64,000 nucleotides of DNA. It comes from Methanobacteriota archaeon. Its GTDB lineage: Archaea; Thermoplasmatota; Poseidoniia; Poseidoniales; Poseidoniaceae. Of this stretch, positions 26,438-64,000 are shown piece by piece. Position numbers and translations under genes: made by a program. Where the stretch lies: the NCBI GenBank assembly GCA_002719815.1, contig PBET01000001.1, positions 131 to 64,130 of the forward strand, read 5' to 3'. Position 1 is the first letter of the stretch. Each line of letters opens with the position of its first letter. Below the pieces are notes generated by a model. The model was not told the origin of the DNA, did no database searches, and saw only the letters and a program-made list of their open reading frames with translations.

Positions 26438-26817
26438 TCTTTCACCTCAAATCGCATTGCAGCACTGTTGATGCAATATCGTTCTCCCCCATGTTTACGT
26501 GGACCGTCGTTGAATACGTGCCCTAGATGGGCATCACAATTACCACATCGTACTTCAACTCTGGTCATTCCGTGAGATGTGTCGATGATTCGTTTAATCT
26601 CTGCATCACAATGTTCTGTGTGAAACGCTGGCCATCCACAACCCGAATCAAATTTCATCTGGTCCGTGAACAGGAGTGTATCACAAACGATGCAAAAATA
26701 ATCACCCTGACGATATTCCTTGTTGAGAATGCCTGTAAATGGCCTTTCAGTACCATTTTGTTGTGTGACATAATATGCCATTTCAGATAAAGATGCAATT
26801 CGTTCTTCATGACTCAT
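26434..26817 (-). CDS. msrB: Peptide-methionine (R)-S-oxide reductase
   Basis: 'YFCIVCDTLLF...SGCGWPAF', 'RVEVRCGNCDAHLGHVFNDGP' and 'RYCINSAA'. The ORF opens at 26847, and an alternative ATG lies at 26817. Confidence 0.9.
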   Translation of the reverse strand: MSHEERIASLSEMAYYVTQQNGTERPFTGILNKEYRQGDYFCIVCDTLLFTDQMKFDSGCGWPAFHTEHCDAEIKRIIDTSHGMTRVEVRCGNCDAHLGHVFNDGPRKHGGERYCINSAAMRFEVKE

Positions 26818-28823: not shown

Positions 28824-28824
28824 A

Positions 28825-28998
28825 TTATTCACCACCAATTCGACCTTGTCGTGCATCAATACTGTCCAACTGGTCCAACAATTTCCTGCAGGCTGAACGA
28901 ATAGCATCGGCTACACTGATGAATTTCTTGTCGTCACCAACATGGCCTTTCAAATCACTGAGAAGTTCGCTCGGCATGTCTAAACTTATCTTGGGCAT
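28825..28998 (-). CDS. Ribbon-helix-helix (CopG-like) small DNA-binding protein
   Basis: 'MPKISLDMPSELLSDLKGHV...FISVADAIRSACRKLLDQL' has beta-strand plus two-helix RHH topology. It sits directly upstream of folE. The longer ORF form (to 29082) would overlap the ABC permease. Confidence 0.5.
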   Translation of the reverse strand: MPKISLDMPSELLSDLKGHVGDDKKFISVADAIRSACRKLLDQLDSIDARQGRIGGE

Positions 28999-34871: not shown

Positions 34872-35884
34872 CTCCAGTTGACTGGCGTGTCATCTGTCCT
34901 CATGTATTGATCAATTCCACTCGACTCGAATGGAGTTTTGCGTCCATGCTTAAGTTCAATATACCCCAAGAGGCCAATCATCGTCCCATTATCGATACAA
35001 TACATCCTTGGAGGTGCATGCGATGTTGATTCACGTTCTGTAGCCATAAGCGTTGACATTTCTCGCAAGCGATTGTTGCAGGCTACGCCTCCACCAAGAA
35101 GAACTTCCTTCTTGCCACTATGTGCAAGTGCTCGCTCAGCCACTTCGATGCATGCAGCGAATGCATGCTCCTGTAGTGACCAACAAACTGCGCCCAATGA
35201 ATGTCCCTTTTCGATAAGGCGCTGTGCCGCAGTTAAAATTCCTGAAAAGGCAAGATCCATTCCTCGTACAGGGTAAGGTAATTCCAATCCGTCGAGTGTA
35301 GCATCTGGATTCTCGTCGATGTAGGCTTTGGCAAGTTTTTCGATTACCGGGCCTCCTGGGAAAGGAATACCTTGTTGCCGAGCGAACTTATCGAGCATGT
35401 TACCAATACCGATGTCAAGAGTTTCGCCAAGAACTCTATATTTTCCTTGTAATTTAGCAATGACTTGTGTATTGCCTCCACTAACATAGAGTAAAACTGG
35501 GTCATCACATTCACATTGTTGTCGACCAATTTCAATATGAGCTACACAATGATTAACGCCGATGAGGGGAACATCAAGCCTGCTGGACAATGTTCTTGCA
35601 ACTGATGCTCCAATTCTTAGGCATGGTCCAAGGCCTGGTCCTTGTGAGTATGCAATCGCTCCAATGTCAGCGGTAGTGAGTTGTTGAGACTCAAGCACGC
35701 GATGGAACAGTTCTCCTGCATAATCACGGTGATGATCTGCAGCCTCTCTTGGATGGATGCCACCTTCAAGAGGCTTAATTGTGTCTCCAACAGAAGGGTA
35801 TGGTATGCCGTTAGGATCGACGAGCCCAAACGAAAATGTATGTGCAGTGGATTCAATACCAATGGTCCATTTTCCATCGCTCAT
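34868..35884 (-). CDS. kae1: tRNA N6-adenosine threonylcarbamoyltransferase Kae1 (KEOPS catalytic subunit), not fused to Bud32
   Basis: 'IGIESTAHTFSFGLVD', 'GGIHPREAADHH', 'IAYSQGPGLGPCLRIG' and 'LGGGVACNNRLREM'. The ORF opens at 35929, and the ATG at 35884 is likely. Confidence 0.9.
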   Translation of the reverse strand: MSDGKWTIGIESTAHTFSFGLVDPNGIPYPSVGDTIKPLEGGIHPREAADHHRDYAGELFHRVLESQQLTTADIGAIAYSQGPGLGPCLRIGASVARTLSSRLDVPLIGVNHCVAHIEIGRQQCECDDPVLLYVSGGNTQVIAKLQGKYRVLGETLDIGIGNMLDKFARQQGIPFPGGPVIEKLAKAYIDENPDATLDGLELPYPVRGMDLAFSGILTAAQRLIEKGHSLGAVCWSLQEHAFAACIEVAERALAHSGKKEVLLGGGVACNNRLREMSTLMATERESTSHAPPRMYCIDNGTMIGLLGYIELKHGRKTPFESSGIDQYMRTDDTPVNWS

Positions 35885-35934
35885 GGTTACCCGAGCATGC
35901 GATTGTTCTTCAACCCTCACCTTTTGCAAGAACT

Positions 35935-37137
35935 ATGCGAACCATATTTCACAACATTGGTTCGATTCAAACAATGAATGAAAATAATTCATTAATTAAA
36001 GGAAAAAATATTATTGTAAAAGACAATGTTATCGAGGATGTTGTGGATTCAATAGACGAATTTGAATCATCAGACGTTGAATTCATTGATGTTGGCGAGC
36101 GTGCAATTATTCCAGGACTTATTGATGCACACAACCATCTTGTCTGGGCTGGTGATCGATTCAATGAGCATCGGTTGCGAATGGAAGGGAAAACCTATGC
36201 AGATATCGCAAGTATGGGAGGAGGCATCATGCAAACTGTCAATTCAACTCGAAATGCTACAGATGAACAATTGTATTCAATCGGTATGCAACGAATGAAA
36301 CAAGCTCTCCAGAATGGTGTCACATTTCTTGAAGCTAAATCAGGCTATGGACTTTCAACGAAAGAAGAATTGCGTCTACTGAACATCGTCGACCGACTTA
36401 AGAATGAATCGAATCTTCCATCTATTCACTCAACATGGATGGGCGCTCATGCTGTGACTCCAGACCATACCTATGCGTCGTATACCGAGGAAATTTTGTC
36501 TGAACAATTGCCAGAGGTTTTGGATTCTAATCTAGCAGAATCGGCCGATGTTTTCTGCGAACCTGGTTGGTTCAACATTGAACAATCAGAAGATATTTTG
36601 CGCGCATCAAGACAAGGTGGCTTGGACTTACGAATGCACGTAGATGAATTTTCGGATGGCGGAGGAGGCGAACTTGCTGCTGAACTACAAGTTCGTACAG
36701 CAGATCATGCTCACCATACGCCTTCTGATACGAGGCAAAAAATGAACGATGCGGGCGTAATGACTGGATTTTTACCAGGTACGCCGTATTGCAATGGTGA
36801 TGCGTGGCCAGATTTCAATGATGCAATTGAATGTGGCATCCAATTCACCCTAGCATCCGACTTTAATCCGAATTGTTACATCAACAGCATTCCTTTCATT
36901 GGATCTTTGGCTGTTCAGAAGAATGGAATGGACCCTTATCATGCACTTTCGTGTGTAACTCGTATGGCTGCTCGATCTACACCTCGAACCGATGGCCTTG
37001 AACATGGAGTAATCGAAAAAGGTGCAGTAGCGAATTTCAATATTCTCAAGAGCAAGCACTGGGAGAGTTGGTGCATGATGCCATCATCATCTCCCGTTCA
37101 ATCAGTGTGTCTCGAAGGGCAGCATATTGAATTTTGA
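35935..37137 (+). CDS. hutI: Imidazolonepropionase
   Basis: 'TIFHNIGSIQTM' N-terminus, 'IIPGLIDAHNHLVWAGDR', 'GGGIMQTVNSTR' and 'TADHAHH'. The ORF opens at 35836, inside kae1, so ATG 35935 is chosen. Confidence 0.88.
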   Translation: MRTIFHNIGSIQTMNENNSLIKGKNIIVKDNVIEDVVDSIDEFESSDVEFIDVGERAIIPGLIDAHNHLVWAGDRFNEHRLRMEGKTYADIASMGGGIMQTVNSTRNATDEQLYSIGMQRMKQALQNGVTFLEAKSGYGLSTKEELRLLNIVDRLKNESNLPSIHSTWMGAHAVTPDHTYASYTEEILSEQLPEVLDSNLAESADVFCEPGWFNIEQSEDILRASRQGGLDLRMHVDEFSDGGGGELAAELQVRTADHAHHTPSDTRQKMNDAGVMTGFLPGTPYCNGDAWPDFNDAIECGIQFTLASDFNPNCYINSIPFIGSLAVQKNGMDPYHALSCVTRMAARSTPRTDGLEHGVIEKGAVANFNILKSKHWESWCMMPSSSPVQSVCLEGQHIEF

Positions 37138-38112: not shown

Positions 38113-38457
38113 TCAATTTTCATCATTGTGTGGTTTGTTATCAGTTTTCTGAACAGAAATAGGTTCATCATCGAGATTAGAAAAGTCAGTATTCCCGCCA
38201 GTCCAAGATTGGATTTCATTGGTCTCTTCAAATGATTCGTCAATCATTTTTGCACTTGAAGACAATGAATATGCTGAAGGATCAATTTCCCTTTGTTCAG
38301 TGCGCTCTGATGGATCTGGCGCTTTTCTTTCTTCCATCGGTAGACTTGAATGAAAAAGGCCACATTCTGGACACTTGAATGTACCCTTGGTTTCAAGCGT
38401 TCCGCATGAAGGACAGCGGACTGCTGATAGGAATGAGAACAATGGATCTGTTGTCAA
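38113..38457 (-). CDS. Zinc-ribbon protein with an acidic disordered tail
   Basis: 114 aa with ribbon 'CPSCGTLETKGTFKCPECG'. There is a 2-nt gap to the upstream EF-hand gene. Confidence 0.5.
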   Translation of the reverse strand: MTTDPLFSFLSAVRCPSCGTLETKGTFKCPECGLFHSSLPMEERKAPDPSERTEQREIDPSAYSLSSSAKMIDESFEETNEIQSWTGGNTDFSNLDDEPISVQKTDNKPHNDEN

Positions 38458-38459
38458 TT

Positions 38460-40475
38460 CTAATCCTCTGGAATAAACATTTCATCCTGGTAACCTACGA
38501 TTTCATCACCAGTTTCTTCTTCTTCAATTGTGACGGTTTCTTCTTCATCATCAAACTCGATGATTGTTCCATAATACTCCTCGCCATCGATGTCAAGACC
38601 TACGTACGAGCCAATATCGAGTTCTTCCTCTTGGCCTTCTTCAGCTTCCTCTTCCTCAACTTCCTCGGTTTCGGTCGCATCATCTTCGACGGATTCTTTG
38701 TCCTCCATGTCCTCCTCGTCCACTGTGTCTTCGGATTCTGAATCTTCGATTGCTTCCTTCACTTCAGCGCGTTCGTCATCAACGTCTTTCATGGCTTTGA
38801 CTCGAGCTCTCCAACCAGGTGCAAGAATGAGATGTGTGTATAGGCTCCAGACCAGTCCAGCTCCTGCGAGAACCATGAATAGAATTGCATCCCAATAGAA
38901 ATCACCTGGCATTGAAGATGATTTACCTGCCAATGGTGTCAATGAATTCTTACACTCGCCTTTCTGTATTTCGGGATCACATGGATAGGCTTGGCCTTCT
39001 GTAACAACAGTACCATCATCCATTAACCACTCTGAAGCGGGTGAATCATCGCGAATATCGAGTTCAATCATGCCTCCGGTACCATCGACGATTGGGAACA
39101 ATGCATTGACCAATAATCCAACAATAATGATCGAAAACGATGCGTGAATGAGTGGCCAAAAAACGTCATGCCATTTCTTTGACATAAAGCGAGATTGCCA
39201 TTCAGTAGGGAAGGTTTTCACCGTTTCAGCTTCTTCATCTTCAATTGATGCAATGCCATCTTCATGGCGTTCAATCGCATCAACGAATTCAACCATGTCG
39301 ATGTTTCCATCACCATCTGTGTCCATGGTGGAAAGCAGTTCATCCGCCTCTGATTCACTCAATCCTTCTGGCAATATCTCGTTCAATTTAACAACCAATT
39401 CACTTGATGTTAACAAACGATTACCATCATCATCAAGATCGCCAAATGCATTAGCGAGCGACTTATCTTGTTCATCAATGATGTCAAGTAATTGTTCCAA
39501 AATTTCCTCTGGAGAGCGCTGAGGCGTGACAGATATCTCATCAATCGCTTCTTCTTCCTCTTCTTCGACAGTATCCTCCTCAACGATATCTTCGTCGGAA
39601 TGTTCTGGAACGACTTCTTCAATTTCCTCATGTTCCGCGGATTCATCCACCTCTTCAGATACGTCGATGGATTCATCCTCTTCAACTTCAACAATCTCTT
39701 GTTCAGAATCATCATCAGATTCTGTGTTAACGTCTTCTTCTAATTCAGCCACAACCGTCTCTTCCGATTCGGTTTCAGCATCCTCTTCTTCAGATTCTAA
39801 GCGTTCATTCCATGCCGCAGCTGCTGCTTGCAATTCTTCTTTCTTAAGATAGGAATTTCCATCCGTATTGAAATCCTTTGAAAATTCAATAAATGCATCT
39901 TTATCTGAAGGGTCAATCTCATTGGATTCCATCACCTTTGAGAGAACATTTTCGTTGTATTCCAGGGATTCGGTTGTTTCTTCCGCGACATCTGCTTCTG
40001 AATCCTTATCCGTATCAGGGAGCGATTCACCTCCAATGATGGTTTGAAGCTCCTCAAGATCGATGAGGCTATCACCGTCTTCATCAATTGCCTCAACGAG
40101 TTTATCAACTTGTGAAGGGGGCAGGTCGGCAAGATTTAACGAAAGCAAGCCGTCTTTCAGTTCACCTGAATCAATCATGTTGTCGTTGTTTGTGTCAAAT
40201 CGACCAAACAGTGTTTTGACATCCATTTTGTTGTTTGCCATCCACGTTCGAAGGATATCGATGACATCATCAGCGACGAAAACAACACCACATTCCGGAC
40301 ACTTTGTGGAGTCGAGTGGGACTAATGCATTGCATGCACCGCACTCTCCAAGCGCTTCATCGGAAACGCCTGAGAATGATATGCCGCATTCAGGGCAAGA
40401 TTCAGAATCTACTGGAACAATCGCCCTACACGAACCACATTCAGCCATAGCAACTTCTTTATTTTCATCGGACAT
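38460..40475 (-). CDS. Double zinc-ribbon, five-EF-hand, two-TM highly acidic membrane protein
   Basis: 671 aa. Ribbons: 'CGSCRAIVPVDSESCPECG' and 'CGACNALVPLDSTKCPECG'. EF loops: 'DTNNDNMIDSGE', 'DEDGDSLIDLEE', 'NTDGNSYLKKEE', 'DDDGNRLLTSSE' and 'DTDGDGNIDMVE'. TM helices: 'LIHASFSIIIVGLLVNALFPIV' and 'AILFMVLAGAGLVWSLYTHLIL'. The Asp/Glu-rich C-terminus completes the protein. Confidence 0.7.
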   Translation of the reverse strand: MSDENKEVAMAECGSCRAIVPVDSESCPECGISFSGVSDEALGECGACNALVPLDSTKCPECGVVFVADDVIDILRTWMANNKMDVKTLFGRFDTNNDNMIDSGELKDGLLSLNLADLPPSQVDKLVEAIDEDGDSLIDLEELQTIIGGESLPDTDKDSEADVAEETTESLEYNENVLSKVMESNEIDPSDKDAFIEFSKDFNTDGNSYLKKEELQAAAAAWNERLESEEEDAETESEETVVAELEEDVNTESDDDSEQEIVEVEEDESIDVSEEVDESAEHEEIEEVVPEHSDEDIVEEDTVEEEEEEAIDEISVTPQRSPEEILEQLLDIIDEQDKSLANAFGDLDDDGNRLLTSSELVVKLNEILPEGLSESEADELLSTMDTDGDGNIDMVEFVDAIERHEDGIASIEDEEAETVKTFPTEWQSRFMSKKWHDVFWPLIHASFSIIIVGLLVNALFPIVDGTGGMIELDIRDDSPASEWLMDDGTVVTEGQAYPCDPEIQKGECKNSLTPLAGKSSSMPGDFYWDAILFMVLAGAGLVWSLYTHLILAPGWRARVKAMKDVDDERAEVKEAIEDSESEDTVDEEDMEDKESVEDDATETEEVEEEEAEEGQEEELDIGSYVGLDIDGEEYYGTIIEFDDEEETVTIEEEETGDEIVGYQDEMFIPED

Positions 40476-40584: not shown

Positions 40585-41445
40585 ATGTCTGGCAGGATGT
40601 ATTCAATTCAAGCAAAAAATTCAGCTGAATTTGTTGACAAAATCGACCAGTTGGATCTATCCATTGACACGGCTCAAATATTCGTATCCCGATTGCCTCC
40701 ATCAAGGCTTCTTGATGTACTGGACATTTCGAGTATTCGCTGTTATTGGTTAACATCATCGCAAGGCGTCGGCACACTCGAACCCAGTCTGGAGAAAATC
40801 AATCATTTTCTTGAATCGACTCTTGGTGAAGGAGAGGGGATTATTTTCCTTGAAGGATTGGAGTGGTTAACTTCTCTCCACGGTTTTGAATCCGTTCATT
40901 CAATGATTCGTACCATCTCTGAGAGGATCTCAATGAGCGATTGGACTGTTTACATCGCAATATCCCCAAGTAGTTTTGATCAGCGCGAATTGTCGAGAAT
41001 TTATCGAGAAGCACCAGTGTTGAATGTGACAATCGATGAACAGCAGTTTACTGAGATGGAATCGAGCCAGAGTCAGCATGACCATCCTGCGAATATCCGT
41101 TCGTCGTTAGAAATGGATCTCAATGAAGATGGTACGCCGAAACTCGTGATGTTGACGAAATTGCCCAAGTCAGGTTTCACTAAACAAATTTTACAACGCA
41201 GAATCCTTCAATGGCGGAGGATGGGATTGGATACTGCTGAGGTTGAATCATCACTGTATCATGAAGATATAGATCTGATGTATGCCGAATACATTCAGAT
41301 CGAAGAAAATGTGCGCCGTGCAGTAGAATTGGAACGCTATATTTTGGCTGATGTAAAGGATACGCAAGAGCGCACTATTGCATTGTTTAGGATACGTCAA
41401 CTAACAGGTCTTGATGAATTAGAAAACAGATATTTTCTAGATTGA
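40585..41445 (+). CDS. DUF835-like protein
   Basis: 'GIIFLEGLEWLTSLHGFESVHSMIRTISERISMSDWTVYIAISPSSFDQRELSRIYREA' follows the DUF835 pattern (vvlLDglEYLi...Fe.v..fl..l.d......lii.vdp.al...e). The helical C-terminal half is unassigned. Confidence 0.45.
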   Translation: MSGRMYSIQAKNSAEFVDKIDQLDLSIDTAQIFVSRLPPSRLLDVLDISSIRCYWLTSSQGVGTLEPSLEKINHFLESTLGEGEGIIFLEGLEWLTSLHGFESVHSMIRTISERISMSDWTVYIAISPSSFDQRELSRIYREAPVLNVTIDEQQFTEMESSQSQHDHPANIRSSLEMDLNEDGTPKLVMLTKLPKSGFTKQILQRRILQWRRMGLDTAEVESSLYHEDIDLMYAEYIQIEENVRRAVELERYILADVKDTQERTIALFRIRQLTGLDELENRYFLD

Positions 41446-43023
41446 TTTCTTCAATGGTCGTTCAAGTGACGATTGGATCACTGACAGCCATGTCGAGGAT
41501 GTTAATTCTTGAGCAATCGATACAAGTTCATCACTTGTACTTCGATCGTTCATATTGGGCTGAATGACTTGGTCCAAGCAACGAATCATCGACTGAACGC
41601 ATGTCGATGAAGGCGTCGCAATGATTTTCAATGCGCGATAGGAAACAAATGCTTCACAAGCAAGAACCTCAGAACAGCGTTCTATCGCTTTGAATAAATT
41701 CCAGCTTGCTGTTGCAGCCATGCTCACATGGTCTTCTTGACCTGCAGAAGTGGTGGTTGAAAAGGCAGATCTTGGCGTAGTATGGCCATGCAATTCACCT
41801 AACGACGCAGCCGCCGCATATTGGACGATCATGAGACCCGATTCGAGACCAGCGTTCTCTGCTAAAAATGGACGAATTGCTCGTCGGTCAGGGTCCAACA
41901 TTTGATCAATACGGCGTTCGCTAATGGAAGATAGTTCAAACAATCCAAGACTCATCGCATCTGATACCAATCCAAGCACTTCTCCATGAAAATTCCCTTG
42001 AGAGACGACTTCGTGCGGACCTGGTTCTGCTGGATTAGGGAAAATCAATGGATTATCTGTTGAGGAATTGAGTTCAATCTCTACCGTTTCAACTAGCGAT
42101 TTGAATGATTCTTGAACAGGGCCGTGAACTTGTGGTATACACCGAAATGAGTACGGATCCTGCACTCGATTGCAGTCGCTATGATTGTTAAGAATGTTCG
42201 AATCTGACAAGATAGAACGTATGCGTGATGCGACAAAGAGTTGTCCTTCATGTCGACGCGTTTGATGTATACGTTCATCGAAAGGTGTTAGTGTTGATTC
42301 GGTCGCATCAATCGACATGCCAGCGATGATGTCTGAATATGTCAATAATTGGCGCAATTGTTCGACAGCAAGGGACAACATACCAGTAATGAGGCTGGTT
42401 CCATTGATCAAGGACAAGCCATCCTTTGCTCGTAACACCAGTGGCGATAATTCACATCGCCGAATTGCTTCCATCGCATCAATAATATCGCCTTGATACT
42501 CAACTCGTCCTTCACCAACCAATGCGCACGCTAAGTGCGACAAGGGTGCTAAATCACCACTTGCACCTAAACTGCCAATTCGCGGAACGAGAGGCGTTAT
42601 TGAGTGATTGATAAAATCGACAAGTTGGTTGATCACATCTGGATGACAACCTGAATGCCCTTTGACCAAGGAGTTGAGTCGGACACACATCATCGCTCGG
42701 ACAATTTCGGTCGATAGATTCGGGCCGAGGCCAGTAGCATGAGAACGAATCAAGTTAAGTTGTAAAAGTTCGACATCTTCTGAACCGATTCGCGTATGTA
42801 CGAGCGACCCAAAACCAGTATTGATTCCATAGACTGTTTCATCACCATCAACGATTCGGTCAACAACGTTACGAGCCATCTGTACACGCATCATCGCGTG
42901 GTCAGCAATGGTTACAGTTGCATGACCATATGCTACATCGGCTACATCAAATGTGTTTAACGTCTCACCATCGAGTGTAACTATACGTTTTGCCAAATTA
43001 ATCACCCTTGAATAGATCATCAA
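41437..43023 (-). CDS. hutH: Histidine ammonia-lyase
   Basis: The MIO-forming 'GSLGASGDLAPLSHLA' motif is present, as are 'NTGFGSL' and 'QDPYSFRCIPQVHG'. The 5' end overlaps hutU by 26 nt. Confidence 0.92.
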   Translation of the reverse strand: MMIYSRVINLAKRIVTLDGETLNTFDVADVAYGHATVTIADHAMMRVQMARNVVDRIVDGDETVYGINTGFGSLVHTRIGSEDVELLQLNLIRSHATGLGPNLSTEIVRAMMCVRLNSLVKGHSGCHPDVINQLVDFINHSITPLVPRIGSLGASGDLAPLSHLACALVGEGRVEYQGDIIDAMEAIRRCELSPLVLRAKDGLSLINGTSLITGMLSLAVEQLRQLLTYSDIIAGMSIDATESTLTPFDERIHQTRRHEGQLFVASRIRSILSDSNILNNHSDCNRVQDPYSFRCIPQVHGPVQESFKSLVETVEIELNSSTDNPLIFPNPAEPGPHEVVSQGNFHGEVLGLVSDAMSLGLFELSSISERRIDQMLDPDRRAIRPFLAENAGLESGLMIVQYAAAASLGELHGHTTPRSAFSTTTSAGQEDHVSMAATASWNLFKAIERCSEVLACEAFVSYRALKIIATPSSTCVQSMIRCLDQVIQPNMNDRSTSDELVSIAQELTSSTWLSVIQSSLERPLKKSI

Positions 43024-45007
43024 GCAAGGAATCCTTGACTATTTCAGGGATTGTTATCTTCAATTGATCGTTGATTTGCATTGCATGCTTTATGGATTTG
43101 ATAGCACCTTCATTACGGGCCCATGCCCTACGAGCGACACCATTCGAAACATCCCAATGCAACATGGATTGAAGTCGTTGTTCAGCTTCTTCCGTTCCAT
43201 CTATGAGCATGCCAAAGCCACCATTGGATACCTCACCCCAACCGACGCCACCACCATTATGCAAACTGACCCACGTTGCACCTCGCATTGCATCTCCAAC
43301 GAAATTTTGAACCGACATATCAGCAGTCCATTTCGAACCATCATGAATATTCGCTGTTTCTCTATAGGGGGAATCAGTACCACTTACATCGTGATGGTCA
43401 CGTCCTAGTATGATTGGAGCACTGATTCGACCATCTGCAATGGCTTTGTTCATCGCTGAAGCAATACGCGTACGACCTTGCTCATCTGCATAAAGGATGC
43501 GTGCCTTTGAACCTACGACAAGTTTGTGACTGTCTGCTTCGTGTATCCAACGTAAATTATCTTGAATTTGTTGACGAACATCTTCATCTTGTTCATGATC
43601 AAGCATCTCTTGAAGGACGTCTCCTGCTATTCTGTCTGTTTCAAGCAAATCAGAATCGAGCCCTGAGGAACAAACCCAGCGAAATGGACCAAAACCTCGA
43701 TCGAAGCATAGAGGCCCCATGATGTCCTCAACATATGACGGGTACTTGTACGAACCATCTTCTTTGAATACATCAGCACCGACTCGACCGGATTCCAATA
43801 AGAAGGCATTACCATAATCCCAGAAGAACATTCCCCGGTCTGTCATCACATTGACAGCACCAACATGCCGGCGCAGTGAATCCTGTACCATCTCCTTGAA
43901 TTTTGATGGCTCTTCATGCATCAATCGTTGCCCGTCCTCAAAACGTAATCCTGCAGGGAAATAACCACCCTGATATGGATTATGAAGCGATGTTTGATCA
44001 CTTCCTAAATGAACGTATACATCTCTTGCAACAAGACGCTCCCATAAGTCGACTATGTTTCCAACATATCCAACAGAACATCCCTTTTTTTCTTCAGATG
44101 CATTGATCATAATGTCGATTGCTTCATCAACATCGTATGATAGGTGGTCGACCCATCCTTGATCATGGCGTTTCTGTGCAGCTACAGGATTCGACTCTGC
44201 TACGATACATGAAGCTCCTGCGATGACGGCAGCCTTCGCTTGTGCACCAGACATTCCGCCCAAACCGGATGTCACAAAACGCATGCCACCAAGATTGCTG
44301 TCCGATGAAAGGCCGAACTTAAGTCTTGCAGCATTCATCAATGTAATCGTTGTGCCATGGACGATGCCTTGTGGACCGATGTACATGTATGAGCCTGCAG
44401 TCATTTGACCGTATTGCGTCACACCCATTGCATTCAACCGCTCATACTCCTCTGTCGTTGAATAGTTAGGAATCATCATACCATTCGTTACAACAACGCG
44501 GGGTGCGTTTTTGTTCGATGGAAACAATCCGAGTGGATGTCCAGAGTACATGACGAGTGTTTGTTCATCGGTCATTTCGCTAAGATATTTCATGACTAGA
44601 CGATACTGCGCCCAATTCTGGAAAACCGCTCCATTCCCACCATAGGTGATCAATTCGTGTGGAAATTGAGCAACTCTTGGGTCGAGGTTGTTATCGATCA
44701 TCAGCATTATGCCAGAGGCTTGCAAGGAGTTTGCAGAATACTCGTGAATAGGTAGTGCTGCGATGGTTCGAGTTGGCCGAAATCGATGCATGTAAATCCG
44801 GCCGTATTGCCTTAATTCTTGTAGAAATTCCTTTCCCAACTGCGCATGATGCTTGGGTTCAAAATAACGCAAGGCATTTGCCAATGCCAATCGCTCTCCC
44901 TCAGAACTGAGAACTTGTTTTCGTATTGGTGCATGGTCAACAGAGTCGTCAATACCAGGGTGCGGAGGAAGTTCGTCCGGTAAACCAATGCACGATTGCT
45001 CAAACAT
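42998..45007 (-). CDS. hutU: Urocanate hydratase (long, ~670-aa form)
   Basis: 'LITYGGNGAVFQNWAQY', 'TSGLGGMSGAQAKAA', 'LHNPYQGGYFP' and 'GRDHHDVSGTDSPYRETAN'. Confidence 0.92.
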   Translation of the reverse strand: MFEQSCIGLPDELPPHPGIDDSVDHAPIRKQVLSSEGERLALANALRYFEPKHHAQLGKEFLQELRQYGRIYMHRFRPTRTIAALPIHEYSANSLQASGIMLMIDNNLDPRVAQFPHELITYGGNGAVFQNWAQYRLVMKYLSEMTDEQTLVMYSGHPLGLFPSNKNAPRVVVTNGMMIPNYSTTEEYERLNAMGVTQYGQMTAGSYMYIGPQGIVHGTTITLMNAARLKFGLSSDSNLGGMRFVTSGLGGMSGAQAKAAVIAGASCIVAESNPVAAQKRHDQGWVDHLSYDVDEAIDIMINASEEKKGCSVGYVGNIVDLWERLVARDVYVHLGSDQTSLHNPYQGGYFPAGLRFEDGQRLMHEEPSKFKEMVQDSLRRHVGAVNVMTDRGMFFWDYGNAFLLESGRVGADVFKEDGSYKYPSYVEDIMGPLCFDRGFGPFRWVCSSGLDSDLLETDRIAGDVLQEMLDHEQDEDVRQQIQDNLRWIHEADSHKLVVGSKARILYADEQGRTRIASAMNKAIADGRISAPIILGRDHHDVSGTDSPYRETANIHDGSKWTADMSVQNFVGDAMRGATWVSLHNGGGVGWGEVSNGGFGMLIDGTEEAEQRLQSMLHWDVSNGVARRAWARNEGAIKSIKHAMQINDQLKITIPEIVKDSLLDDLFKGD

Positions 45008-53744: not shown

Positions 53745-54785
53745 ATGTCCGAGCAAATTGTTGAATGCGTCCCCAACATCTCTGAAGGAAGGGATGAAGA
53801 GAAAATCAACAGGATTGTTGATGCAGCACGAATTGATGGTGTAAAAATTCTTGGCGTAGAACCAGATCCAGATTACAATCGAACAGTCATCACGTTTGCT
53901 GGGACTATGAAAGAAGTGGAGCTTGCCGCTATTCAGCTCATTCGCAAAGCAATCGAAGAAATTGATATGCGCACACATTCAGGTGAGCATCCTCGTATGG
54001 GTTGTGTTGATGTGTGCCCTTTTATTCCAATCTCGAATTCGACGATGGATGATTGTGTGAACATTGCGCAACGTGTTGCAGAAGAAATTGCTCACCTTGA
54101 TGTTCCGGTTTTTCTCTATGGTTATGCGGCAGTTGCTGAATCCAGACGATTATTATCGACACTCAGGAAAGGTGAATATGAAGGATTGGAAGCACGTTTT
54201 GCTGACAACTCAGCCCTCCACGGAGATGAAACTCGGCTACCGGATCTAGGAGCCACTTCTTGGAATGAATCGTCCCAAAAGAGTGGTGGCATCACAATAG
54301 GTGCTCGAGACATCTTGTTAGCATACAATGTGAACATCGATGATGCAGACCCATATGTTGCACAACAAATTGGATCACTCGTACGAAGTTCTGGACGTTT
54401 AATCAAGTCAGAAGACGGAGAGAGAAAATTCCGAACAAAAGGCCTTCTGCAACACGTACAAGGCATGGGTGTTCCCTTAGAATCGCATAATATTAGCCAA
54501 GTTTCGATGAATTTGCAGAATTACAGGATTACAAATCTACATCATGCATTCGACTGTATTGCTTCTCTTTGTAAAAATATGAAGAGCAGGCCGAAAGGCA
54601 GTGAACTTGTGGGTCTTGTGCCGCTCGATGCGATGGTCGAATCGGGGAAATGGTACATTGGAGAAGGACATTCTGATGAGGCATACATTGATGCAGCAAT
54701 CGAACACCTCGGATTGAATTCCATTGGACCATTCAATCCAAGAGAACGCATCATTGAATGGGCAATTCAGGAGGGAGAGGAGTGA
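53745..54785 (+). CDS. Glutamate formiminotransferase (stand-alone FT domain)
   Basis: 'IVECVPNISEGRDEEKI', 'DYNRTVITFAG' and 'HPRMGCVDVCPFIP'. Confidence 0.88.
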   Translation: MSEQIVECVPNISEGRDEEKINRIVDAARIDGVKILGVEPDPDYNRTVITFAGTMKEVELAAIQLIRKAIEEIDMRTHSGEHPRMGCVDVCPFIPISNSTMDDCVNIAQRVAEEIAHLDVPVFLYGYAAVAESRRLLSTLRKGEYEGLEARFADNSALHGDETRLPDLGATSWNESSQKSGGITIGARDILLAYNVNIDDADPYVAQQIGSLVRSSGRLIKSEDGERKFRTKGLLQHVQGMGVPLESHNISQVSMNLQNYRITNLHHAFDCIASLCKNMKSRPKGSELVGLVPLDAMVESGKWYIGEGHSDEAYIDAAIEHLGLNSIGPFNPRERIIEWAIQEGEE

Positions 54786-55414
54786 CTTGGGCGAAGAAGA
54801 CGTTGAAAGAATTTCAAGATGCGTTAGCAAGTAGTGATCCTACTCCTGGAGGCGGTTCGGCTGCTGCAGTTGCCTTGGGCCAAGCAGCAGCACTTGCTGT
54901 AATGGTGAGTGAATTGACTCTCGCAAAGGAATCTCTCTCAGATGGCTGGAGTATATCAGAACAGGTCAAATTTGTTGCAGAACCATTTCTAAAAACAGGC
55001 CTGGAATTAGCGACAAGCGATAGTGATGCATTTGATGCAGTAGTTGCATCGTTTCGCCTTCCGAAGGAGACAGATGAGGATAAAGAAAAGCGAAGAGATG
55101 CAATTCGTTTAGCTACATTAGGGGCTGCTGAAGTACCCTATCAGACAGCTACGAGTGCGTTACAACTTCTAAGATTATTACCGGAACTTGCTGAAAAGGG
55201 GAATCCAAATGCGGCATCAGATGTTGGTGTTTCTGCACTTCTCGCATCAGCTGCGCTCAAAGGTGCAATTTTCAATGTTGAAATTAATCTTCAATCATTA
55301 CCCACTGAAATGGGAATGGAGATGAGAGAAAATCTTGCCAATTTAATCGAGGAAGGAAGAGTCTACTCAAGAATGAGTATGGACGCTGTTCGAGAACGCT
55401 TAGCGAACTCGTGA
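54782..55414 (+). CDS. Formimidoyltetrahydrofolate cyclodeaminase (stand-alone CD domain)
   Basis: 'PTPGGGSAAAVALGQAAALAVMV' and 'NPNAASDVGVSALLASAALKGAIFNVEINL'. The likely GTG start at 54782 overlaps the FT stop (GTGA). An alternative ATG lies at 54758. Confidence 0.85.
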   Translation: MTWAKKTLKEFQDALASSDPTPGGGSAAAVALGQAAALAVMVSELTLAKESLSDGWSISEQVKFVAEPFLKTGLELATSDSDAFDAVVASFRLPKETDEDKEKRRDAIRLATLGAAEVPYQTATSALQLLRLLPELAEKGNPNAASDVGVSALLASAALKGAIFNVEINLQSLPTEMGMEMRENLANLIEEGRVYSRMSMDAVRERLANS

Positions 55415-59763: not shown

Positions 59764-60615
59764 TCAGTCTTCGGATTTCTCTTCTGATTCTTCCGCTTCT
59801 TCTGCGTTTTCTGCGTTTTCTTCACGTTCTAACGCTTTGGCAGCCGCTTTTTCTTCACGGGCTTTTGCTCGATCCTCAACACGCTGTGCATATTTTTCAC
59901 CAAATTGGCTCATACTTTCCAGGCGAGCACGGAAACCAGAAGTTGCTTGTTCTTCTGGCACATAGCGTACAAGATATGCACCGAAGAGAAGATCGAATAG
60001 TCCTTGATTGAGATCGCTATTGCGAGTGAATTGCCAGTTGACGATCCAAAGAATCATCAATACTGCACCAACTGAAGTAAAAATGGCTGGCGAACTACCT
60101 CCGCCGGAAATCTTTCCAGCTTGGGTAAAGACCATGATGAATCCAATCAAGGAAAGGAGACCGATATTGTTGACGAATAAACTGTGGAGGAACAACGGTT
60201 TTGATCCATCGCCACGGATATAGCGTGTTGATGAGGTATATTGCCCCAAGTTTCTTCCAGTATTGATCGGAAGGAAGATGGCATTGAAAAGGATAACGAG
60301 GAATCCAATAATGAATAACAAGGTGTTTTCAAAACCACCACTGCCACCTCCTGTCAGTACGTTCATCACGAGGGCTCCTATGAGAATTGCAAAATTGGCA
60401 ACAAAATTGACCCACCAACAAATGACGCGACTGAGTTTAGGGGCAATTTCAAATTCGTCCGAGAGTCCTTGAGGACGGGGTGTCTTTTGCTTAGGTTTCT
60501 TCTCTTTCTTCGGTTTCTTTTCCTTCTTTGGCACTGGCTTGGCTTCCTTAGCCACTACAGGTTTTGCCTTTTTGACGTCCGTATTAGTTGATTCGACCTT
60601 GTCAAGTAATCCCAT
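59764..60615 (-). CDS. Polytopic membrane protein with a Lys-rich N-tail and an acidic C-tail (possible RDD family)
   Basis: 'KKEKKPKKEKKPKQK' N-tail, 3-4 TM helices, 'GRNLGQYTSSTRYIRGDGS' (RDD-like loop) and the C-terminal 'EENAENAEEAEESEEKSED'. Confidence 0.4.
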   Translation of the reverse strand: MGLLDKVESTNTDVKKAKPVVAKEAKPVPKKEKKPKKEKKPKQKTPRPQGLSDEFEIAPKLSRVICWWVNFVANFAILIGALVMNVLTGGGSGGFENTLLFIIGFLVILFNAIFLPINTGRNLGQYTSSTRYIRGDGSKPLFLHSLFVNNIGLLSLIGFIMVFTQAGKISGGGSSPAIFTSVGAVLMILWIVNWQFTRNSDLNQGLFDLLFGAYLVRYVPEEQATSGFRARLESMSQFGEKYAQRVEDRAKAREEKAAAKALEREENAENAEEAEESEEKSED

Positions 60616-60628
60616 GTTATCGCCTCAC

Positions 60629-61585
60629 TCATGTGTACATTTCAGAAATTTGTTTGTAAATCGAAAAATCACCAGACCCAACAAAGGCAGTGATTGATGC
60701 ATCAGGCATGTTGCCGAGTTGTTCATCAATAATCTTGAAGAATTCACCGCGGCGTTCATCATCGATTGCGGTTGGATCAGCACCAACTTCCTTGAACAGT
60801 TCAAATCCATCGGATGCAAGGAACGCTTCGATTGCTTCTTCTGGAAGTTCATCTCCAAGTAAATCGTTCACGATTGTGAAGAATTGTGAGAACAACGCAT
60901 CAGCTTCATCCATCGATGTTTCTTCAGCGTCATCTTCAACCTGCTCCTCGGATGCAACAGCAGCCGCTACCGGCTCAGGTTGTGCGATGAGTGAGCGTCG
61001 CTCGGCCATCAATGCTTCAAGTTCAGGTACGAGTTCTCGTAGCGCTTCTTTGTCGCCAGATGCCTTTGCCGATTTATATTGAGGCTTGAGTTCCCGTAGA
61101 CGGTTTTCGACAACAGTCAATCTGTCAGGTTCTTCTTCATCGAGTAATTCAACAACTGGGGCTCCACGGGCTTCTTTCAGTGCTTCTTCTCGCTCCTTTT
61201 TCCTCAGAACGATAATATCTCGATCCAGAGAATGCCCGAATCGATCGGAGTATCGATCGAGAAGAGATCCTGACTCACCTGTAGCAATCCTGTCGATAGC
61301 ACCGTAAATTTGGGGAAGAGGTTTCGAAGACCGTTTTGCCCACAATTCACCATACTCATCGGCAGGTTGTTCCTGAACAGGAGCAGTTGGTTGAGGGATA
61401 GGTGCAGGAACAGATTCCTGTGGTGGCAAGGGTGCGGGAGGTAGAGCTGCGACTGGTTCTGGCTCAGGAAGAGGTGCAACTGGCAGCGGTGGTAGAGGTG
61501 CACCTGGTAGTGGTGGCATGCCCGGTAGAGGAGGAAGTGGAGAAGGTGGTGAATCCGCAGATTTGTTCTTTTTTCGTCGTCGCAT
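60629..61585 (-). CDS. Hypothetical protein with an N-terminal PPLP-type polyproline tract and an acidic helical body
   Basis: 'SPPSPLPPLPGMPPLPGAPLPPLPVAPLPEPEP...PPAPLPP', followed by coiled-coil-like acidic sequence. An internal C-terminal duplication is visible ('EAIEAFLASDGFELFKEVG' and 'ASITAFVGSGDFSIYKQIS'). Confidence 0.5.
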   Translation of the reverse strand: MRRRKKNKSADSPPSPLPPLPGMPPLPGAPLPPLPVAPLPEPEPVAALPPAPLPPQESVPAPIPQPTAPVQEQPADEYGELWAKRSSKPLPQIYGAIDRIATGESGSLLDRYSDRFGHSLDRDIIVLRKKEREEALKEARGAPVVELLDEEEPDRLTVVENRLRELKPQYKSAKASGDKEALRELVPELEALMAERRSLIAQPEPVAAAVASEEQVEDDAEETSMDEADALFSQFFTIVNDLLGDELPEEAIEAFLASDGFELFKEVGADPTAIDDERRGEFFKIIDEQLGNMPDASITAFVGSGDFSIYKQISEMYT

Positions 61586-62910: not shown

Positions 62911-63120
62911 CTATGCATTCTTCATGTAAAATTTCTCTTCTGTCTCGCCGACAACGGTGACAGTATCTGCGCCGGTTGCTTCAACATAGTGATCCCAGCA
63001 GAGGTAGTGTTGATTATAGACCATGGCATTTCCAAACGTTAGGCGAATACCACATTTATGGCAACGTGGTCCTATCTCACCGTTCGGCGCTTGTGCGAGT
63101 TGAACATGTTCGTGTGGCAT
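62911..63120 (-). CDS. Small putative zinc-finger protein
   Basis: 69 aa. 'CHKCG...(17)...CWDH' gives a CxxC...CxxH ligand set. No family recognised. Confidence 0.4.
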   Translation of the reverse strand: MPHEHVQLAQAPNGEIGPRCHKCGIRLTFGNAMVYNQHYLCWDHYVEATGADTVTVVGETEEKFYMKNA

Positions 63121-63176: not shown

Positions 63177-63656
63177 TCATTCTGGTATGGAACTTTTGTG
63201 AACCCAATCAAGCAAATCCAATGCAACTTCACAGGATTCACTCACCTCGATGTGCTCGTCGTGCAAGAATTCCTTCAAGACTGGAATCGCATCGAGGTTG
63301 CCAATAGCTCCGAGTGCTTCTGCAGCCTCATGACGTACCATGACATGTTCAGAGGAATCGGATAGAATATTGATCAAGGTAGGTACTGCTTCATCCATTT
63401 GCATTTGGCCAAGAACATAGGCCAATTCATGGCGTAGAAGTGCACTTCCTGACGCGAAAGCTTCGCACAAAATCATGCATGATTCTGGTGAACGTATATT
63501 CCTTAATTTGAATACAGAACGCATACGTTGGAACATTTTTTGATGTTCATCAAGAAGTATATTCTTCAACTCGTTCAATTGTTCTGAAGCAGAAGGAGGT
63601 GCAGGGTCAACTGATCCATATTCACTTGTATCCGGACGCCGTTGAATATTCATCAC
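63177..63656 (-). CDS. Half-length deoxyhypusine hydroxylase-like HEAT-repeat protein (two His-Glu motifs)
   Basis: 'SVDPAPP', 'MFQRMRSVFKLRN', 'GSALLRHELAYVLGQMQ', 'VMVRHEAAEALGAIG' and 'IEVSESCEVALD' match the C-terminal half of eukaryotic DOHH as I remember it. The ATGA overlap with the upstream MqnD-like ORF is preceded by an AGGAGTGA Shine-Dalgarno-like sequence. Confidence 0.65.
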   Translation of the reverse strand: MMNIQRRPDTSEYGSVDPAPPSASEQLNELKNILLDEHQKMFQRMRSVFKLRNIRSPESCMILCEAFASGSALLRHELAYVLGQMQMDEAVPTLINILSDSSEHVMVRHEAAEALGAIGNLDAIPVLKEFLHDEHIEVSESCEVALDLLDWVHKSSIPE

Positions 63657-64000
63657 TCCTTTGCACCAATGAAGGTAAGTGAAGAAACGTCAAAGTCTTC
63701 TCGTATTAATCCGAGTTCTTGGCCCTCTTTTAGAAAACGTCGAATGGATGAGCGACCTTCTGGTTTGTAATCGATGGTACGATCATTCACATACATTGTC
63801 ACGAATTTTTGATTTGTTTCATCGTCGATACCACGGCCCCAAGCCTTGGCAAATTCGAGTGCCTCCTCTGGGTGTTGAATGGAATGTTCGATGCTCATTT
63901 TTGTATACATAGTAACATCTTCCATAACTTGTTGTCCGAGATCTCTTCGCACAACATTTCCCCCCAAAGGCATAGGCCAGCCATCGGTACGTTCGTTCCA
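63653..64000 (-). CDS. MqnA/MqnD-family (futalosine-pathway menaquinone biosynthesis) protein, C-terminal part; gene runs off the window
   Basis: 'GRGIDDETNQKFVTMYVNDRTIDYKPEGRSSIRRFLKEGQELGLI' matches the conserved MqnD/MqnA C-terminus. The frame is open from 63973 to the window edge (WNERTDGWP precedes the first Met). Confidence 0.6.
   Translation of the reverse strand, partial: WNERTDGWPMPLGGNVVRRDLGQQVMEDVTMYTKMSIEHSIQHPEEALEFAKAWGRGIDDETNQKFVTMYVNDRTIDYKPEGRSSIRRFLKEGQELGLIREDFDVSSLTFIGAKE

What the first reader, a model, noticed from the sequence alone, without database searches (positions are those of the whole stretch)
63177..63656. Stand-alone half of deoxyhypusine hydroxylase in an archaeon
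Seen in sequence: the 159-aa ORF carries 'YGSVDPAPPSASEQLNELKNILLDEHQKMFQRMRSVFKLRN...GSALLRHELAYVLGQMQ...VMVRHEAAEALGAIG...IEVSESCEVALD'. From memory of human DOHH, this tracks the second half of that enzyme almost block for block: 'SVDPAPP...LFERYRAMFALRN...GSALFRHEVGYVLGQLQ...PMVRHECAEALGAI...VRESCEVALD'. The two His-Glu metal-ligand motifs (H76/E77 and H109/E110) are 33 residues apart, as in each half of the eukaryotic enzyme. Established knowledge: eukaryotic DOHH is a ~300-aa pseudo-dyad of two four-HEAT halves, and its four HE motifs build one di-iron centre. To my knowledge no DOHH orthologue has been assigned in archaea, although some archaea carry hypusinated aIF5A. The ORF is not a truncated fragment. 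Its ATG overlaps the stop of an unrelated MqnD-like gene (ATGA) and is preceded by an AGGAGTGA Shine-Dalgarno-like sequence, so there is no room for an N-terminal half. Inference: a homodimer of this half could reconstitute the di-iron site. That would make it a candidate for the missing archaeal aIF5A hydroxylase, and either an ancestral-like single-half form or a laterally acquired and halved eukaryotic gene.
Basis: partly seen in the sequence, partly recalled or inferred. Interest (0 to 1): 0.85.

Follow-up and report, generated by a model that had tools for sequence, protein, structure and literature searches.

The report
Half-size hypusine hydroxylase in marine archaea
A small, strongly conserved gene of the abundant ocean archaea called Marine Group II encodes one half of the eukaryotic di-iron enzyme that completes the hypusine modification of translation factor 5A; it is the first clear archaeal relative of that enzyme, and it probably works as a pair of identical halves.

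Summary
The ORF is real (63177..63656, minus strand; 159 aa from GTG, 158 from ATG). It is a specific homologue of deoxyhypusine hydroxylase (DOHH): human DOHH 4D4Z is the top PDB hit at E=9.5e-67, and each half of it aligns with the whole ORF. It is not a fragment. Proteins of 155-162 aa with the same gene neighbourhood occur throughout Poseidoniales (Marine Group II), in both families. Both His-Glu motifs, the substrate-binding Gly and the SVDPAP motif are invariant, and dN/dS is about 0.06-0.10. Two copies joined head to tail model as a DOHH fold (pLDDT 92.7; TM 0.92 to 4D4Z).

Over the repeat core it is equidistant from eukaryotic N- and C-halves and lies outside both crown groups on a short branch. 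Only the N-terminal SVDPAPP motif is C-half-like.

Best reading: a homodimeric di-iron hydroxylase of deoxyhypusinated aIF5A, specific to MGII. It does not explain hypusine in Crenarchaeota. The main rival is a role tied to menaquinone synthesis, because the mqnD-halfDOHH gene pair survives a rearrangement. JGI pipelines already label these proteins, but no searchable paper describes them. No activity, iron content, dimer, DHS or aIF5A was tested.

The parts
63177..63656 (-). Half-size DOHH homologue. 159 aa from GTG 63656, or 158 aa from ATG 63653; stop codon at 63179-63177. It has four HEAT-PBS hairpins preceded by an SVDPAPP motif.
   Evidence: E=9.5e-67 to human DOHH 4d4z. dN/dS is 0.06-0.10 against orthologues.
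63426..63431 (-). Codons for H76-E77, the first His-Glu metal/substrate motif. It is equivalent to human H56-E57 and H207-E208.
   Evidence: Aligned. Invariant in 38 diverse family members and in the 80 loci. Residue roles come from PMC9117371.
63327..63332 (-). Codons for H109-E110, the second His-Glu motif. It is equivalent to human H89-E90 and H240-E241.
63408..63410 (-). Codon for G83. It is equivalent to human G63/G214, which is implicated in binding the deoxyhypusine side chain.
   Evidence: Invariant in alignments A1 and A3. Role from PMC9117371; that review prints G65 for the N-half glycine, which by the alignment is G63.
63594..63614 (-). Codons for S15-P21, SVDPAPP. In eukaryotic DOHH this motif sits in the linker in front of the C-terminal half.
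   Evidence: S15 V16 D17 P18 A19 P20 are invariant in the family.
63653..63656 (-). GTGA overlap between the stop of mqnD (TGA, 63655-63653) and the GTG start of the half-DOHH. This suggests translational coupling.
   Evidence: L001 has ATGA at the same place.
63653..64000 (-). 3' part of mqnD (1,4-dihydroxy-6-naphthoate synthase of the futalosine pathway). The gene runs off the window end.
   Evidence: Pfam VitK2_biosynth, 2.2e-13. The full-length orthologue L001:9081-10004 matches 2czl/3a3u MqnD at 9.4e-48.
62911..63120 (-). 69-aa Cys/His-containing small protein, immediately downstream on the same strand. It is conserved next to the gene but of unknown function. It is listed as context, not as an established partner.
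   Evidence: Present in 78 of 80 loci. No Pfam or NCBIfam hit. In MGIIb it stays with PriS, not with the half-DOHH.

Best explanation
The gene encodes a functional half-size deoxyhypusine hydroxylase. Each 158/159-aa chain forms four HEAT hairpins and carries two His-Glu motifs. Two identical chains are proposed to associate about a true two-fold axis, in the way the N- and C-halves of eukaryotic DOHH pack about their pseudo-dyad. [quoted passage not shown]

The gene is a fixed, single-locus feature of the aerobic order Poseidoniales (both MGIIa and MGIIb). In evolutionary terms it is an undifferentiated DOHH half. It sits between the eukaryotic N- and C-halves rather than inside either.

Shown: homology, conservation, half-size architecture, lineage distribution, and compatibility with the DOHH fold. 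Inferred: dimerisation, iron binding, the substrate, and the direction of evolution.
For: Specific homology:
- 4d4z matches at E=9.5e-67. Both halves align over essentially the whole ORF (107.6 and 118.1 bits), against about 8-28 bits per stretch for generic HEAT proteins.
- Identity to full-length eukaryotic DOHHs is 43-51%. The named ones are eukaryotes.

Catalytic and substrate residues:
- H76, E77, G83, H109 and E110 are invariant in 38 diverse members and in a 98-row alignment with eukaryotic enzymes.
- Their human equivalents anchor the di-iron centre (H56, H89, E90, H207, H240, E241) and bind the deoxyhypusine chain (E57, E90, E208, E241, G63/G214), according to PMC9117371.

A real, selected, complete gene:
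- dN/dS is 0.06-0.10.
- 373 GTDB species genomes encode a relative. The best 80 are all MGII-type loci with mqnD upstream in 79, and the Zn-ribbon gene and PriS downstream in 78-79.
- A 159-aa clade about 59% identical to the window protein occurs in Thalassarchaeaceae.
- No second half lies within +-10 kb in any locus.

Fold compatibility:
- A head-to-tail fusion of two copies, given an alignment of 97 full-length DOHHs, gives pLDDT 92.7 and pTM 0.90.
- It superposes on 4d4z with TM 0.92 (normalised to 4d4z) and rmsd 1.9 A over 284 columns. The next best hits have TM below 0.5.

Substrate plausibility:
- DHS homologues are reported in all sequenced archaeal genomes. Euryarchaeota, including Thermoplasmales, accumulate deoxyhypusine, which is the DOHH substrate (PMC5178350).
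- MGII are aerobes (established knowledge), so O2 is available.
Against: - No biochemical evidence of any kind exists.
- The dimer is inferred. The only confident model was steered by full-length eukaryotic sequences, and the same fusion without an alignment was poor (pLDDT 62, pTM 0.40).
- DHS and aIF5A of MGII were not retrieved. Neither lies in the window or within +-10 kb of the gene in 80 loci.
- The gene is tightly coupled to mqnD. The mqnD-halfDOHH pair stayed together when the segment was inverted between MGIIa and MGIIb. That could mean a function in quinone biosynthesis.
- Pfam and NCBIfam give only generic HEAT_PBS-type matches.
Confidence: 0.65

Rival explanations
1. It is a DOHH-type di-iron oxygenase, still a dimer of halves, but recruited to another substrate. 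The obvious candidate is a step linked to menaquinone (futalosine pathway) biosynthesis or modification, because the gene is co-transcribed with mqnD.
For: - The start overlaps the mqnD stop.
- mqnE/C, mqnA and mqnD cluster with it.
- In MGIIb the flanks are rearranged, yet mqnD-halfDOHH remains an adjacent, co-oriented pair.
Against: - The known futalosine route from 1,4-dihydroxy-6-naphthoate to menaquinone needs prenylation, decarboxylation and methylation, not hydroxylation (established knowledge).
- Every DOHH signature block is retained at 43-51% identity to eukaryotic enzymes, on a branch shorter than theirs. This includes the residues that bind the deoxyhypusine amine (E77, E110, G83) and the SVDPAPP motif. 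That pattern is expected for an unchanged macromolecular substrate, not for a switch to a small quinone.
- Archaeal operons often mix unrelated housekeeping genes.
Confidence: 0.15
2. Rival about origin: the gene is the C-terminal half of an ordinary eukaryotic DOHH. It was captured by lateral transfer into the MGII ancestor after LECA and then truncated.
For: - The N-terminal SVDPAPP motif otherwise occurs only in the linker before the eukaryotic C-half.
- Raw identity is slightly higher to C-halves (45%) than to N-halves (42%). In 74% of triplets it is closer to the C-half.
- Every half-size relative that could be placed taxonomically belongs to a single archaeal order.
Against: - Over the core it is not C-like. 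The N-versus-C log-odds is +10/+17 bits, against -89+-25 for real C-halves.
- In 85% of distance quartets, two C-halves pair to the exclusion of the MGII protein. A truly nested sequence gives 33%.
- Its three-point branch (0.41) is shorter than those of the C-halves (0.55) and N-halves (0.64). Rapid post-truncation remodelling is therefore not indicated.
- Caveat: these are distance methods on about 128 columns, and NJ bootstraps did not resolve the position.
Confidence: 0.15
3. It is a non-catalytic HEAT/PBS-lyase-like scaffold or adaptor protein, as NCBI names suggest ('HEAT repeat domain-containing protein', 'PBS lyase').
For: Pfam gives only HEAT_PBS/HEAT_2. NCBIfam's best hits are NblB and CpcE. 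NCBI product names are generic.
Against: - The NCBIfam hits are far below cut-off (30.9 bits against 300).
- The match to DOHH is tens of orders of magnitude better than to any lyase (5n3u, 1.1e-07).
- Both His-Glu metal motifs are invariant across the order.
Confidence: 0.03

Closest known systems
Eukaryotic deoxyhypusine hydroxylase (DOHH/Lia1/nero; EC 1.14.99.29; human structure 4D4Z)
   Same: - HEAT-PBS hairpin fold.
- His-Glu motifs 33 residues apart.
- The same flanking signature blocks: SALLxHExAYVLGQ, MVRHEAAEALGAIG, ESCxVALD and SVDPAPP.
- 43-51% identity.
- A fused pair superposes on 4D4Z at TM 0.92.
   Different: - One four-repeat half per chain (158/159 aa) instead of eight repeats in about 300 aa, so the di-iron site can only form between chains.
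- The sequence is not differentiated into N-type or C-type.
- It is found in an archaeon, in an operon-like pair with mqnD.
Cyanobacterial PBS-lyase HEAT proteins (CpcE/CpcF, NblB) and E. coli YibA
   Same: They share the same repeat type (Pfam PF03130 HEAT_PBS), and their sizes are of the same order.
   Different: - They lack the His-Glu metal motifs.
- Matches are weak (5n3u 1.1e-07, 1oyz 3e-05; NblB 30.9 bits against a 300-bit cut-off).
- They have different functions (bilin attachment or phycobilisome degradation).
Homodimeric enzymes whose single active site lies on the dimer axis and whose relatives are fused pseudo-dimers (for example, retroviral versus pepsin-like aspartic proteases)
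   Same: This is only a conceptual parallel. A half-size chain that must dimerise to form one site corresponds to a duplicated and fused two-lobed enzyme in another lineage.
   Different: There is no sequence or structural relationship. The analogy comes from general knowledge and was not tested here.

Membership tests
Deoxyhypusine hydroxylase (DOHH) | Specific sequence homology to DOHH, stronger than to generic HEAT-PBS repeat proteins | tested here: met
   4d4z matches at E=9.5e-67. Each half scores 107.6 and 118.1 bits over 130-143 residues, against about 8-28 bits per stretch for alphaRep proteins and 1.1e-07 for CpcE. An all-against-library HMMER search returns full-length DOHH-type proteins as the best non-giant hits.
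Deoxyhypusine hydroxylase (DOHH) | Strictly conserved His-Glu motifs that ligate the di-iron centre (four per active site) | tested here: inconclusive
   There are two per chain (H76-E77, H109-E110), invariant across the family. Four are available only if the protein dimerises, and that was not shown directly.
Deoxyhypusine hydroxylase (DOHH) | Residues that bind the deoxyhypusine side chain (human E57, E90, E208, E241, G63/G214) | tested here: met
   The equivalents E77, E110 and G83 are invariant. Roles are taken from PMC9117371.
Deoxyhypusine hydroxylase (DOHH) | Single chain of eight HEAT repeats arranged as two four-repeat halves (pseudo-dyad) | tested here: not met
   The chain has 158/159 aa and one four-repeat half. 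The upstream gene ends at the start codon. The same size is seen in more than 200 listed homologues and 80 loci.
Deoxyhypusine hydroxylase (DOHH) | Two halves pack so that the HE helices face one another (the 4D4Z architecture) | tested here: inconclusive
   A fused tandem model has pLDDT 92.7 and TM 0.92 to 4d4z. However, it was guided by an alignment of full-length eukaryotic enzymes, and the single-sequence run failed. No multimer tool was available.
Deoxyhypusine hydroxylase (DOHH) | Fe(II)/O2-dependent hydroxylation of deoxyhypusine on IF5A | not testable with these tools
   This needs biochemistry or mass spectrometry.
Deoxyhypusine hydroxylase (DOHH) | The same genome encodes the pathway partners DHS and (a/e)IF5A with the target lysine | not tested
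   Neither is in the window or within +-10 kb of the gene in 80 loci. Whole MGII genomes could not be queried here. [quoted passage not shown]
PBS-lyase HEAT proteins (CpcE/F, NblB) | Score above the family cut-offs of the curated equivalog models | tested here: not met
   NblB scores 30.9 bits (cut-off 300) and CpcE 26.8 bits (cut-off 330). Only the repeat-level Pfam models HEAT_PBS and HEAT_2 pass.

The most novel reading that the evidence does not exclude
The MGII protein is a surviving, little-changed representative of the pre-duplication DOHH: a homodimeric four-HEAT di-iron enzyme. On this reading, eukaryotic DOHH arose by tandem duplication and fusion of such a gene, and its linker SVDPAPP is simply the N-terminus of the second copy. 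The O2-dependent last step of hypusination would then have a prokaryotic (archaeal) root or pre-LECA exchange partner, rather than being a eukaryotic invention. The symmetric-to-asymmetric transition of a di-iron site could be reconstructed experimentally.
Probability: 0.3. Interest if true: 0.85.

Novelty: new variant of a known kind. Interest (0 to 1): 0.7.

Why it matters
Reviews up to at least 2021 state that DOHH has no orthologue in archaea or bacteria. This family is a clear exception, found in one of the most abundant archaeal groups of the surface ocean.

It gives three directly testable things:
1. Whether some Euryarchaeota-type archaea make true hypusine by the eukaryotic chemistry.
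2. A natural 'half enzyme' with which to ask how a di-iron peroxo site is built across a symmetric interface.
3. An outgroup-like sequence for dating and polarising the internal duplication that created eukaryotic DOHH.

It does not solve the older puzzle of hypusine in Crenarchaeota and in anaerobes. Every relative that could be placed belongs to Poseidoniales, and the enzyme needs O2. It also shows that NCBI product names ('HEAT repeat domain-containing protein', 'PBS lyase', 'hypothetical') hide a specific and interesting assignment that JGI's KO-based pipeline already makes.

Tried and rejected
- Pfam and NCBIfam scans of the ORF gave only generic repeat families. This does not argue against DOHH, because no DOHH-specific model scored.
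- AlphaFold2 of the tandem fusion without an alignment was poor and was discarded (pLDDT 62, pTM 0.40).
An MGII-only co-evolution test of the dimer was therefore not possible.
- Neighbour-joining with 200 bootstraps on 168 half sequences did not resolve where the MGII clade attaches, because rogue long branches interfered. I replaced it with quartet, three-point and profile log-odds tests.
- A strict 'signature column' test found only two columns where the N and C consensus are both at least 60% and different: one N-like and one C-like in MGII. That is too few to use.
- A search for a relic DPAP motif at the N-terminus of eukaryotic N-halves found it in only 2 of 106 sequences (P0207, P0214), at a different spacing in the one read in full (P0207). 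I treat this as chance.
- A scan of viral contigs found nothing.
- Motif searches for aIF5A (GKHGxAK) and DHS in the window and the 80 loci found nothing credible.
- Supplementary tables of the main MGII genomics paper do not mention K06072, K00809 or hypusine.
- Literature searches pairing hypusine or DOHH with Marine Group II, Poseidoniales, Thermoplasmatota or Asgard found no description of this protein.
- Park et al. 2006 (PMC1324997) is not held.
- The idea that two paralogous halves form a heterodimer was rejected for lack of evidence. The one MAG with two copies (NYZH01; L004 and L047) carries them in the same syntenic locus, including the normally single-copy PriS. That indicates a mixed bin.

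Full report
**Observation.** The ORF listing finds an ORF at 63177..63656 on the minus strand, 159 aa from a GTG. The second codon is ATG (63653-63651). The stop of the upstream gene is TGA at 63655-63653. The two genes therefore overlap by GTGA, or by one base if the ATG is used. The orthologous locus L001 has a true ATGA at this place. The AGGAG lies directly against the start, so I would not lean on it as a ribosome-binding site.

**Is it DOHH-like beyond chance?** Yes. Against all PDB sequences the top hit is human deoxyhypusine hydroxylase 4d4z, at E=9.5e-67. The single ORF aligns twice along the human chain. Query 25-154 matches residues 10-139 (107.6 bits), and query 8-150 matches residues 144-286 (118.1 bits). 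Designed alphaRep HEAT proteins reach their totals only by summing many stretches of about 8-28 bits, and the phycocyanin lyase CpcE scores 1.1e-07. Pfam reports only HEAT_PBS and HEAT_2. NCBIfam reports only far-sub-threshold NblB and CpcE matches, with no DOHH-specific model among the hits. That explains the generic NCBI names. An exhaustive HMMER search of 1.84 billion cluster representatives gives 502 proteins at E<=1e-30. Apart from giant multi-repeat proteins, the best are 280-340-aa two-stretch proteins at 43-51% identity. Those that carry names are eukaryotic DOHHs: Leptinotarsa, Mallomonas, Geosiphon and Phytophthora.

**Organism and distribution.** The window is archaeal. It holds:
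- primase PriS next to the gene;
- proteasome-activating nucleotidase and Tsr3;
- archease and tRNA-intron endonuclease;
- ribosomal protein S19e.

The closest homologues are 155-162-aa proteins from marine metagenomes and from MAGs named Candidatus Poseidoniaceae/Poseidoniales, Poseidonia sp., or 'Euryarchaeota/Methanobacteriota archaeon'. In one genome per GTDB species, 373 stretches encode a relative, and the best 80 (60-82% identity) are all of this type. In those 80 loci mqnD lies upstream in 79. The 69-aa Cys/His protein lies downstream in 78 and PriS in 79.

A second clade, 159 aa and about 59% identical to the window protein, is represented by P0247. Its members include proteins that NCBI labels Candidatus Thalassarchaeaceae (MGIIb) and Candidatus Poseidoniales, and some sit on contigs up to 1.68 Mb. 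The half-size gene is therefore a fixed feature of both families of the order, not an assembly artefact or a pseudogene. Nei-Gojobori dN/dS against the nearest orthologues is 0.06-0.10 wherever dS is not saturated. No viral copy was found.

**Completeness and partners.** No second DOHH-like half occurs in the 64-kb window or within +-10 kb of the gene in any of the 80 loci. The additional HE-motif hits there are out-of-frame noise. The only MAG with two copies carries both in the same syntenic context, including PriS, which points to a mixed bin rather than paralogues. No aIF5A or DHS motif or Pfam domain was found in the window or loci. Whole MGII genomes could not be interrogated with these tools. 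The presence of DHS and aIF5A therefore rests on the published statement that DHS homologues occur in all sequenced archaeal genomes (PMC5178350).

**Active-site anatomy.** Thirty-eight diverse family members were aligned. The invariant positions include S15-V16-D17-P18-A19-P20, H76, E77, G83, H109 and E110, together with the surrounding blocks SALL.HE.AYVLGQMQ and MVRHEAAEA.GAIG, and most positions of ESCEVALDL. H76, G83, H109 and E110 remain invariant when 97 full-length DOHHs are added, and E77 is nearly so. According to PMC9117371, human H56, H89, E90, H207, H240 and E241 anchor the di-iron centre. E57, E90, E208, E241 and the glycines seven residues after H56 and H207 bind the deoxyhypusine chain. 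That review prints G65 for the first glycine; by the alignment it is G63. Every one of these has its equivalent in the half.

**Can two halves make a DOHH?** Joining two copies head to tail reproduces the eukaryotic layout, including the linker: '...LDWVHKSSIPE-MMNIQRRPDTSEYGSVDPAPP...' compared with human '...LEWLQQHGGEPAAGPYLSVDPAPP...'. AlphaFold2 on this fusion alone was poor (pLDDT 62). With an alignment of 97 full-length DOHHs it gave pLDDT 92.7 and pTM 0.90. Foldseek places that model on 4d4z with TM 0.92 (normalised to 4d4z) and rmsd 1.9 Å over 284 columns, while every other PDB hit has TM below 0.5. This shows compatibility, not proof, because the alignment carries the eukaryotic inter-half signal.

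Over 128 core columns, excluding the N-terminal extension, mean identities are:
- MGII to eukaryotic C-halves: 45%;
- MGII to eukaryotic N-halves: 42%;
- N-halves to C-halves: 38%.

A profile log-odds test (N-profile versus C-profile, 129 columns) gives +104+-31 bits for held-out N-halves and -89+-25 for held-out C-halves. MGIIa scores only +10+-10 and MGIIb +17+-10. In the window protein, 28 columns favour N and 22 favour C.

Distance quartets group two C-halves to the exclusion of the MGII protein in 85% of draws, and two N-halves in 76%. A sequence that truly belongs to the group gives 33%. Three-point branch lengths are 0.64 (N), 0.55 (C) and 0.41 (MGII). NJ bootstrapping did not resolve the attachment point.

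The MGII protein is thus an undifferentiated half. It lies near the midpoint between the two eukaryotic halves and has changed less than either. Its one clearly C-type character is the SVDPAPP segment, which in eukaryotes is the linker in front of the second half. This pattern fits a lineage that split off before, or very soon after, the internal duplication. It fits poorly with a recent capture and truncation of a crown-eukaryote gene. The evidence comes from distance methods on a short alignment and should be repeated with likelihood methods.

**Genomic context and the main caveat.** The upstream gene is MqnD (1zbm 4.6e-64; 2czl/3a3u 9.4e-48). Further upstream in MGIIa lie MqnA (chorismate dehydratase, 3.9e-26), an MqnE/MqnC-type radical-SAM enzyme and a WD40 protein on the other strand. 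In MGIIb locus L083 the order is PriS(-), small protein(-), mqnD(+), halfDOHH(+), mqnA(-), mqnE/C(-). The mqnD-halfDOHH pair has been inverted as a unit relative to both flanks and has stayed adjacent. That is mild evidence for a functional or regulatory link with menaquinone synthesis. I rank this rival well below the DOHH reading, for two reasons. The known futalosine route needs no hydroxylation (established knowledge). And all DOHH signature blocks, including the amine-binding glutamates, are preserved at a level expected for an unchanged protein substrate.

**Comparison with what is known.** Papers from 2012 to 2021 state that no DOHH orthologue has been found in archaea (PMC3306375, PMC5178350, PMC7432094, PMC8153317). 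Full-text searches pairing hypusine or DOHH with Marine Group II, Poseidoniales, Thermoplasmatota or Asgard found no description of this protein. JGI's automatic annotation, however, already names many of these proteins 'deoxyhypusine monooxygenase'. The homology itself has therefore been seen by pipelines. What is undescribed is the half-size architecture, its order-wide conservation and its position between the two eukaryotic halves.

The find does not explain hypusine in Crenarchaeota or in anaerobes, which have no such gene on record. Early amino-acid analyses of Thermoplasmales, the cultured relatives of MGII, found deoxyhypusine with little or no hypusine. That is the substrate state on which an acquired or retained DOHH would act.

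**Verdict.** I file the protein as a new architectural variant of DOHH, a stand-alone half that is presumably homodimeric. My confidence is about 0.65 that it hydroxylates deoxyhypusinated aIF5A, and about 0.3 that it represents the pre-duplication form of the enzyme.

Noticed in passing
window 62911-63120 (-); L083 8855-9049 (-): A 69-aa protein (64 aa in MGIIb) with CxxC and Cys/His spacing lies between the half-DOHH and PriS in 78 of 80 MGIIa loci. It has no Pfam or NCBIfam hit. In MGIIb it stays next to PriS rather than the half-DOHH, so it may be a primase-associated zinc-binding protein.
   Followed up: partly
L083/L084 9143-12492 compared with L001 4824-10486: Between the two MGII families, the mqnD-halfDOHH pair is inverted as a unit relative to PriS on one side and mqnA plus the mqnE/C-type radical-SAM gene on the other. 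MGIIa also has a 742-aa WD40 beta-propeller gene inserted on the opposite strand between mqnA and mqnD (L001 6852-9080).
   Followed up: partly
L005 (CALDQY010000261.1) and L006 (CAXQWT010000082.1): Two public MAGs are labelled as bacteria ('uncultured Rhodobiaceae bacterium' and 'Salipiger bermudensis'). Both contain contigs with the full MGII synteny (mqnD, half-DOHH, Zn-ribbon gene, PriS). These contigs look like archaeal contamination of bacterial bins.
   Followed up: no
L004 and L047 (both from MAG NYZH01, isolate ARS60): One MAG carries the whole syntenic locus twice, at 77% and 64% identity to the window protein. This is most simply a bin that mixes two MGII populations.
   Followed up: no
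protein P0061 (158 aa, ENA, on a 1361-bp contig): Its N-terminal part resembles the MGIIb clade (…MFQRMRALFALRNMGGNESVDAL…), while its C-terminal part matches the MGIIa protein P0001 residue for residue. It is either an assembly chimera or a recombinant.
   Followed up: no
window 41437-45007 (-), 53745-55414 (+), 35836-37137 (+): Histidine-degradation genes are present: histidine ammonia-lyase type, urocanase and an amidohydrolase. There is also a formiminotransferase-cyclodeaminase split into two overlapping genes (FTCD_N+FTCD, then FTCD_C). In animals FTCD is a single fused enzyme.
   Followed up: no
window 38113-40475 (-): A 671-aa protein combines an N-terminal zinc-ribbon (UPF0547-like) with several EF-hand pairs. 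It is followed by a 114-aa zinc-ribbon protein. EF-hand calcium-binding modules of this size are unusual in archaea.
   Followed up: no
window 25988-28907 (-): A compact 7-deazaguanine (preQ0/archaeosine precursor) gene set: GTP cyclohydrolase I, a QueE-like radical-SAM gene, QueC and QueD/PTPS. A methionine sulfoxide reductase B (SelR) gene is inserted between QueC and QueD.
   Followed up: no
window 59764-61585 (-): Two adjacent genes (283 aa and 318 aa) have no Pfam hit. The 318-aa protein has a proline-rich N-terminus (PPLPG repeats) and an acidic C-terminal region. The 283-aa protein has a lysine-rich N-terminus (KKEKKPKKEKKPK) and an acidic C-terminal tail. They are conserved downstream of PriS in 60-67 of the 80 loci.
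   Followed up: no
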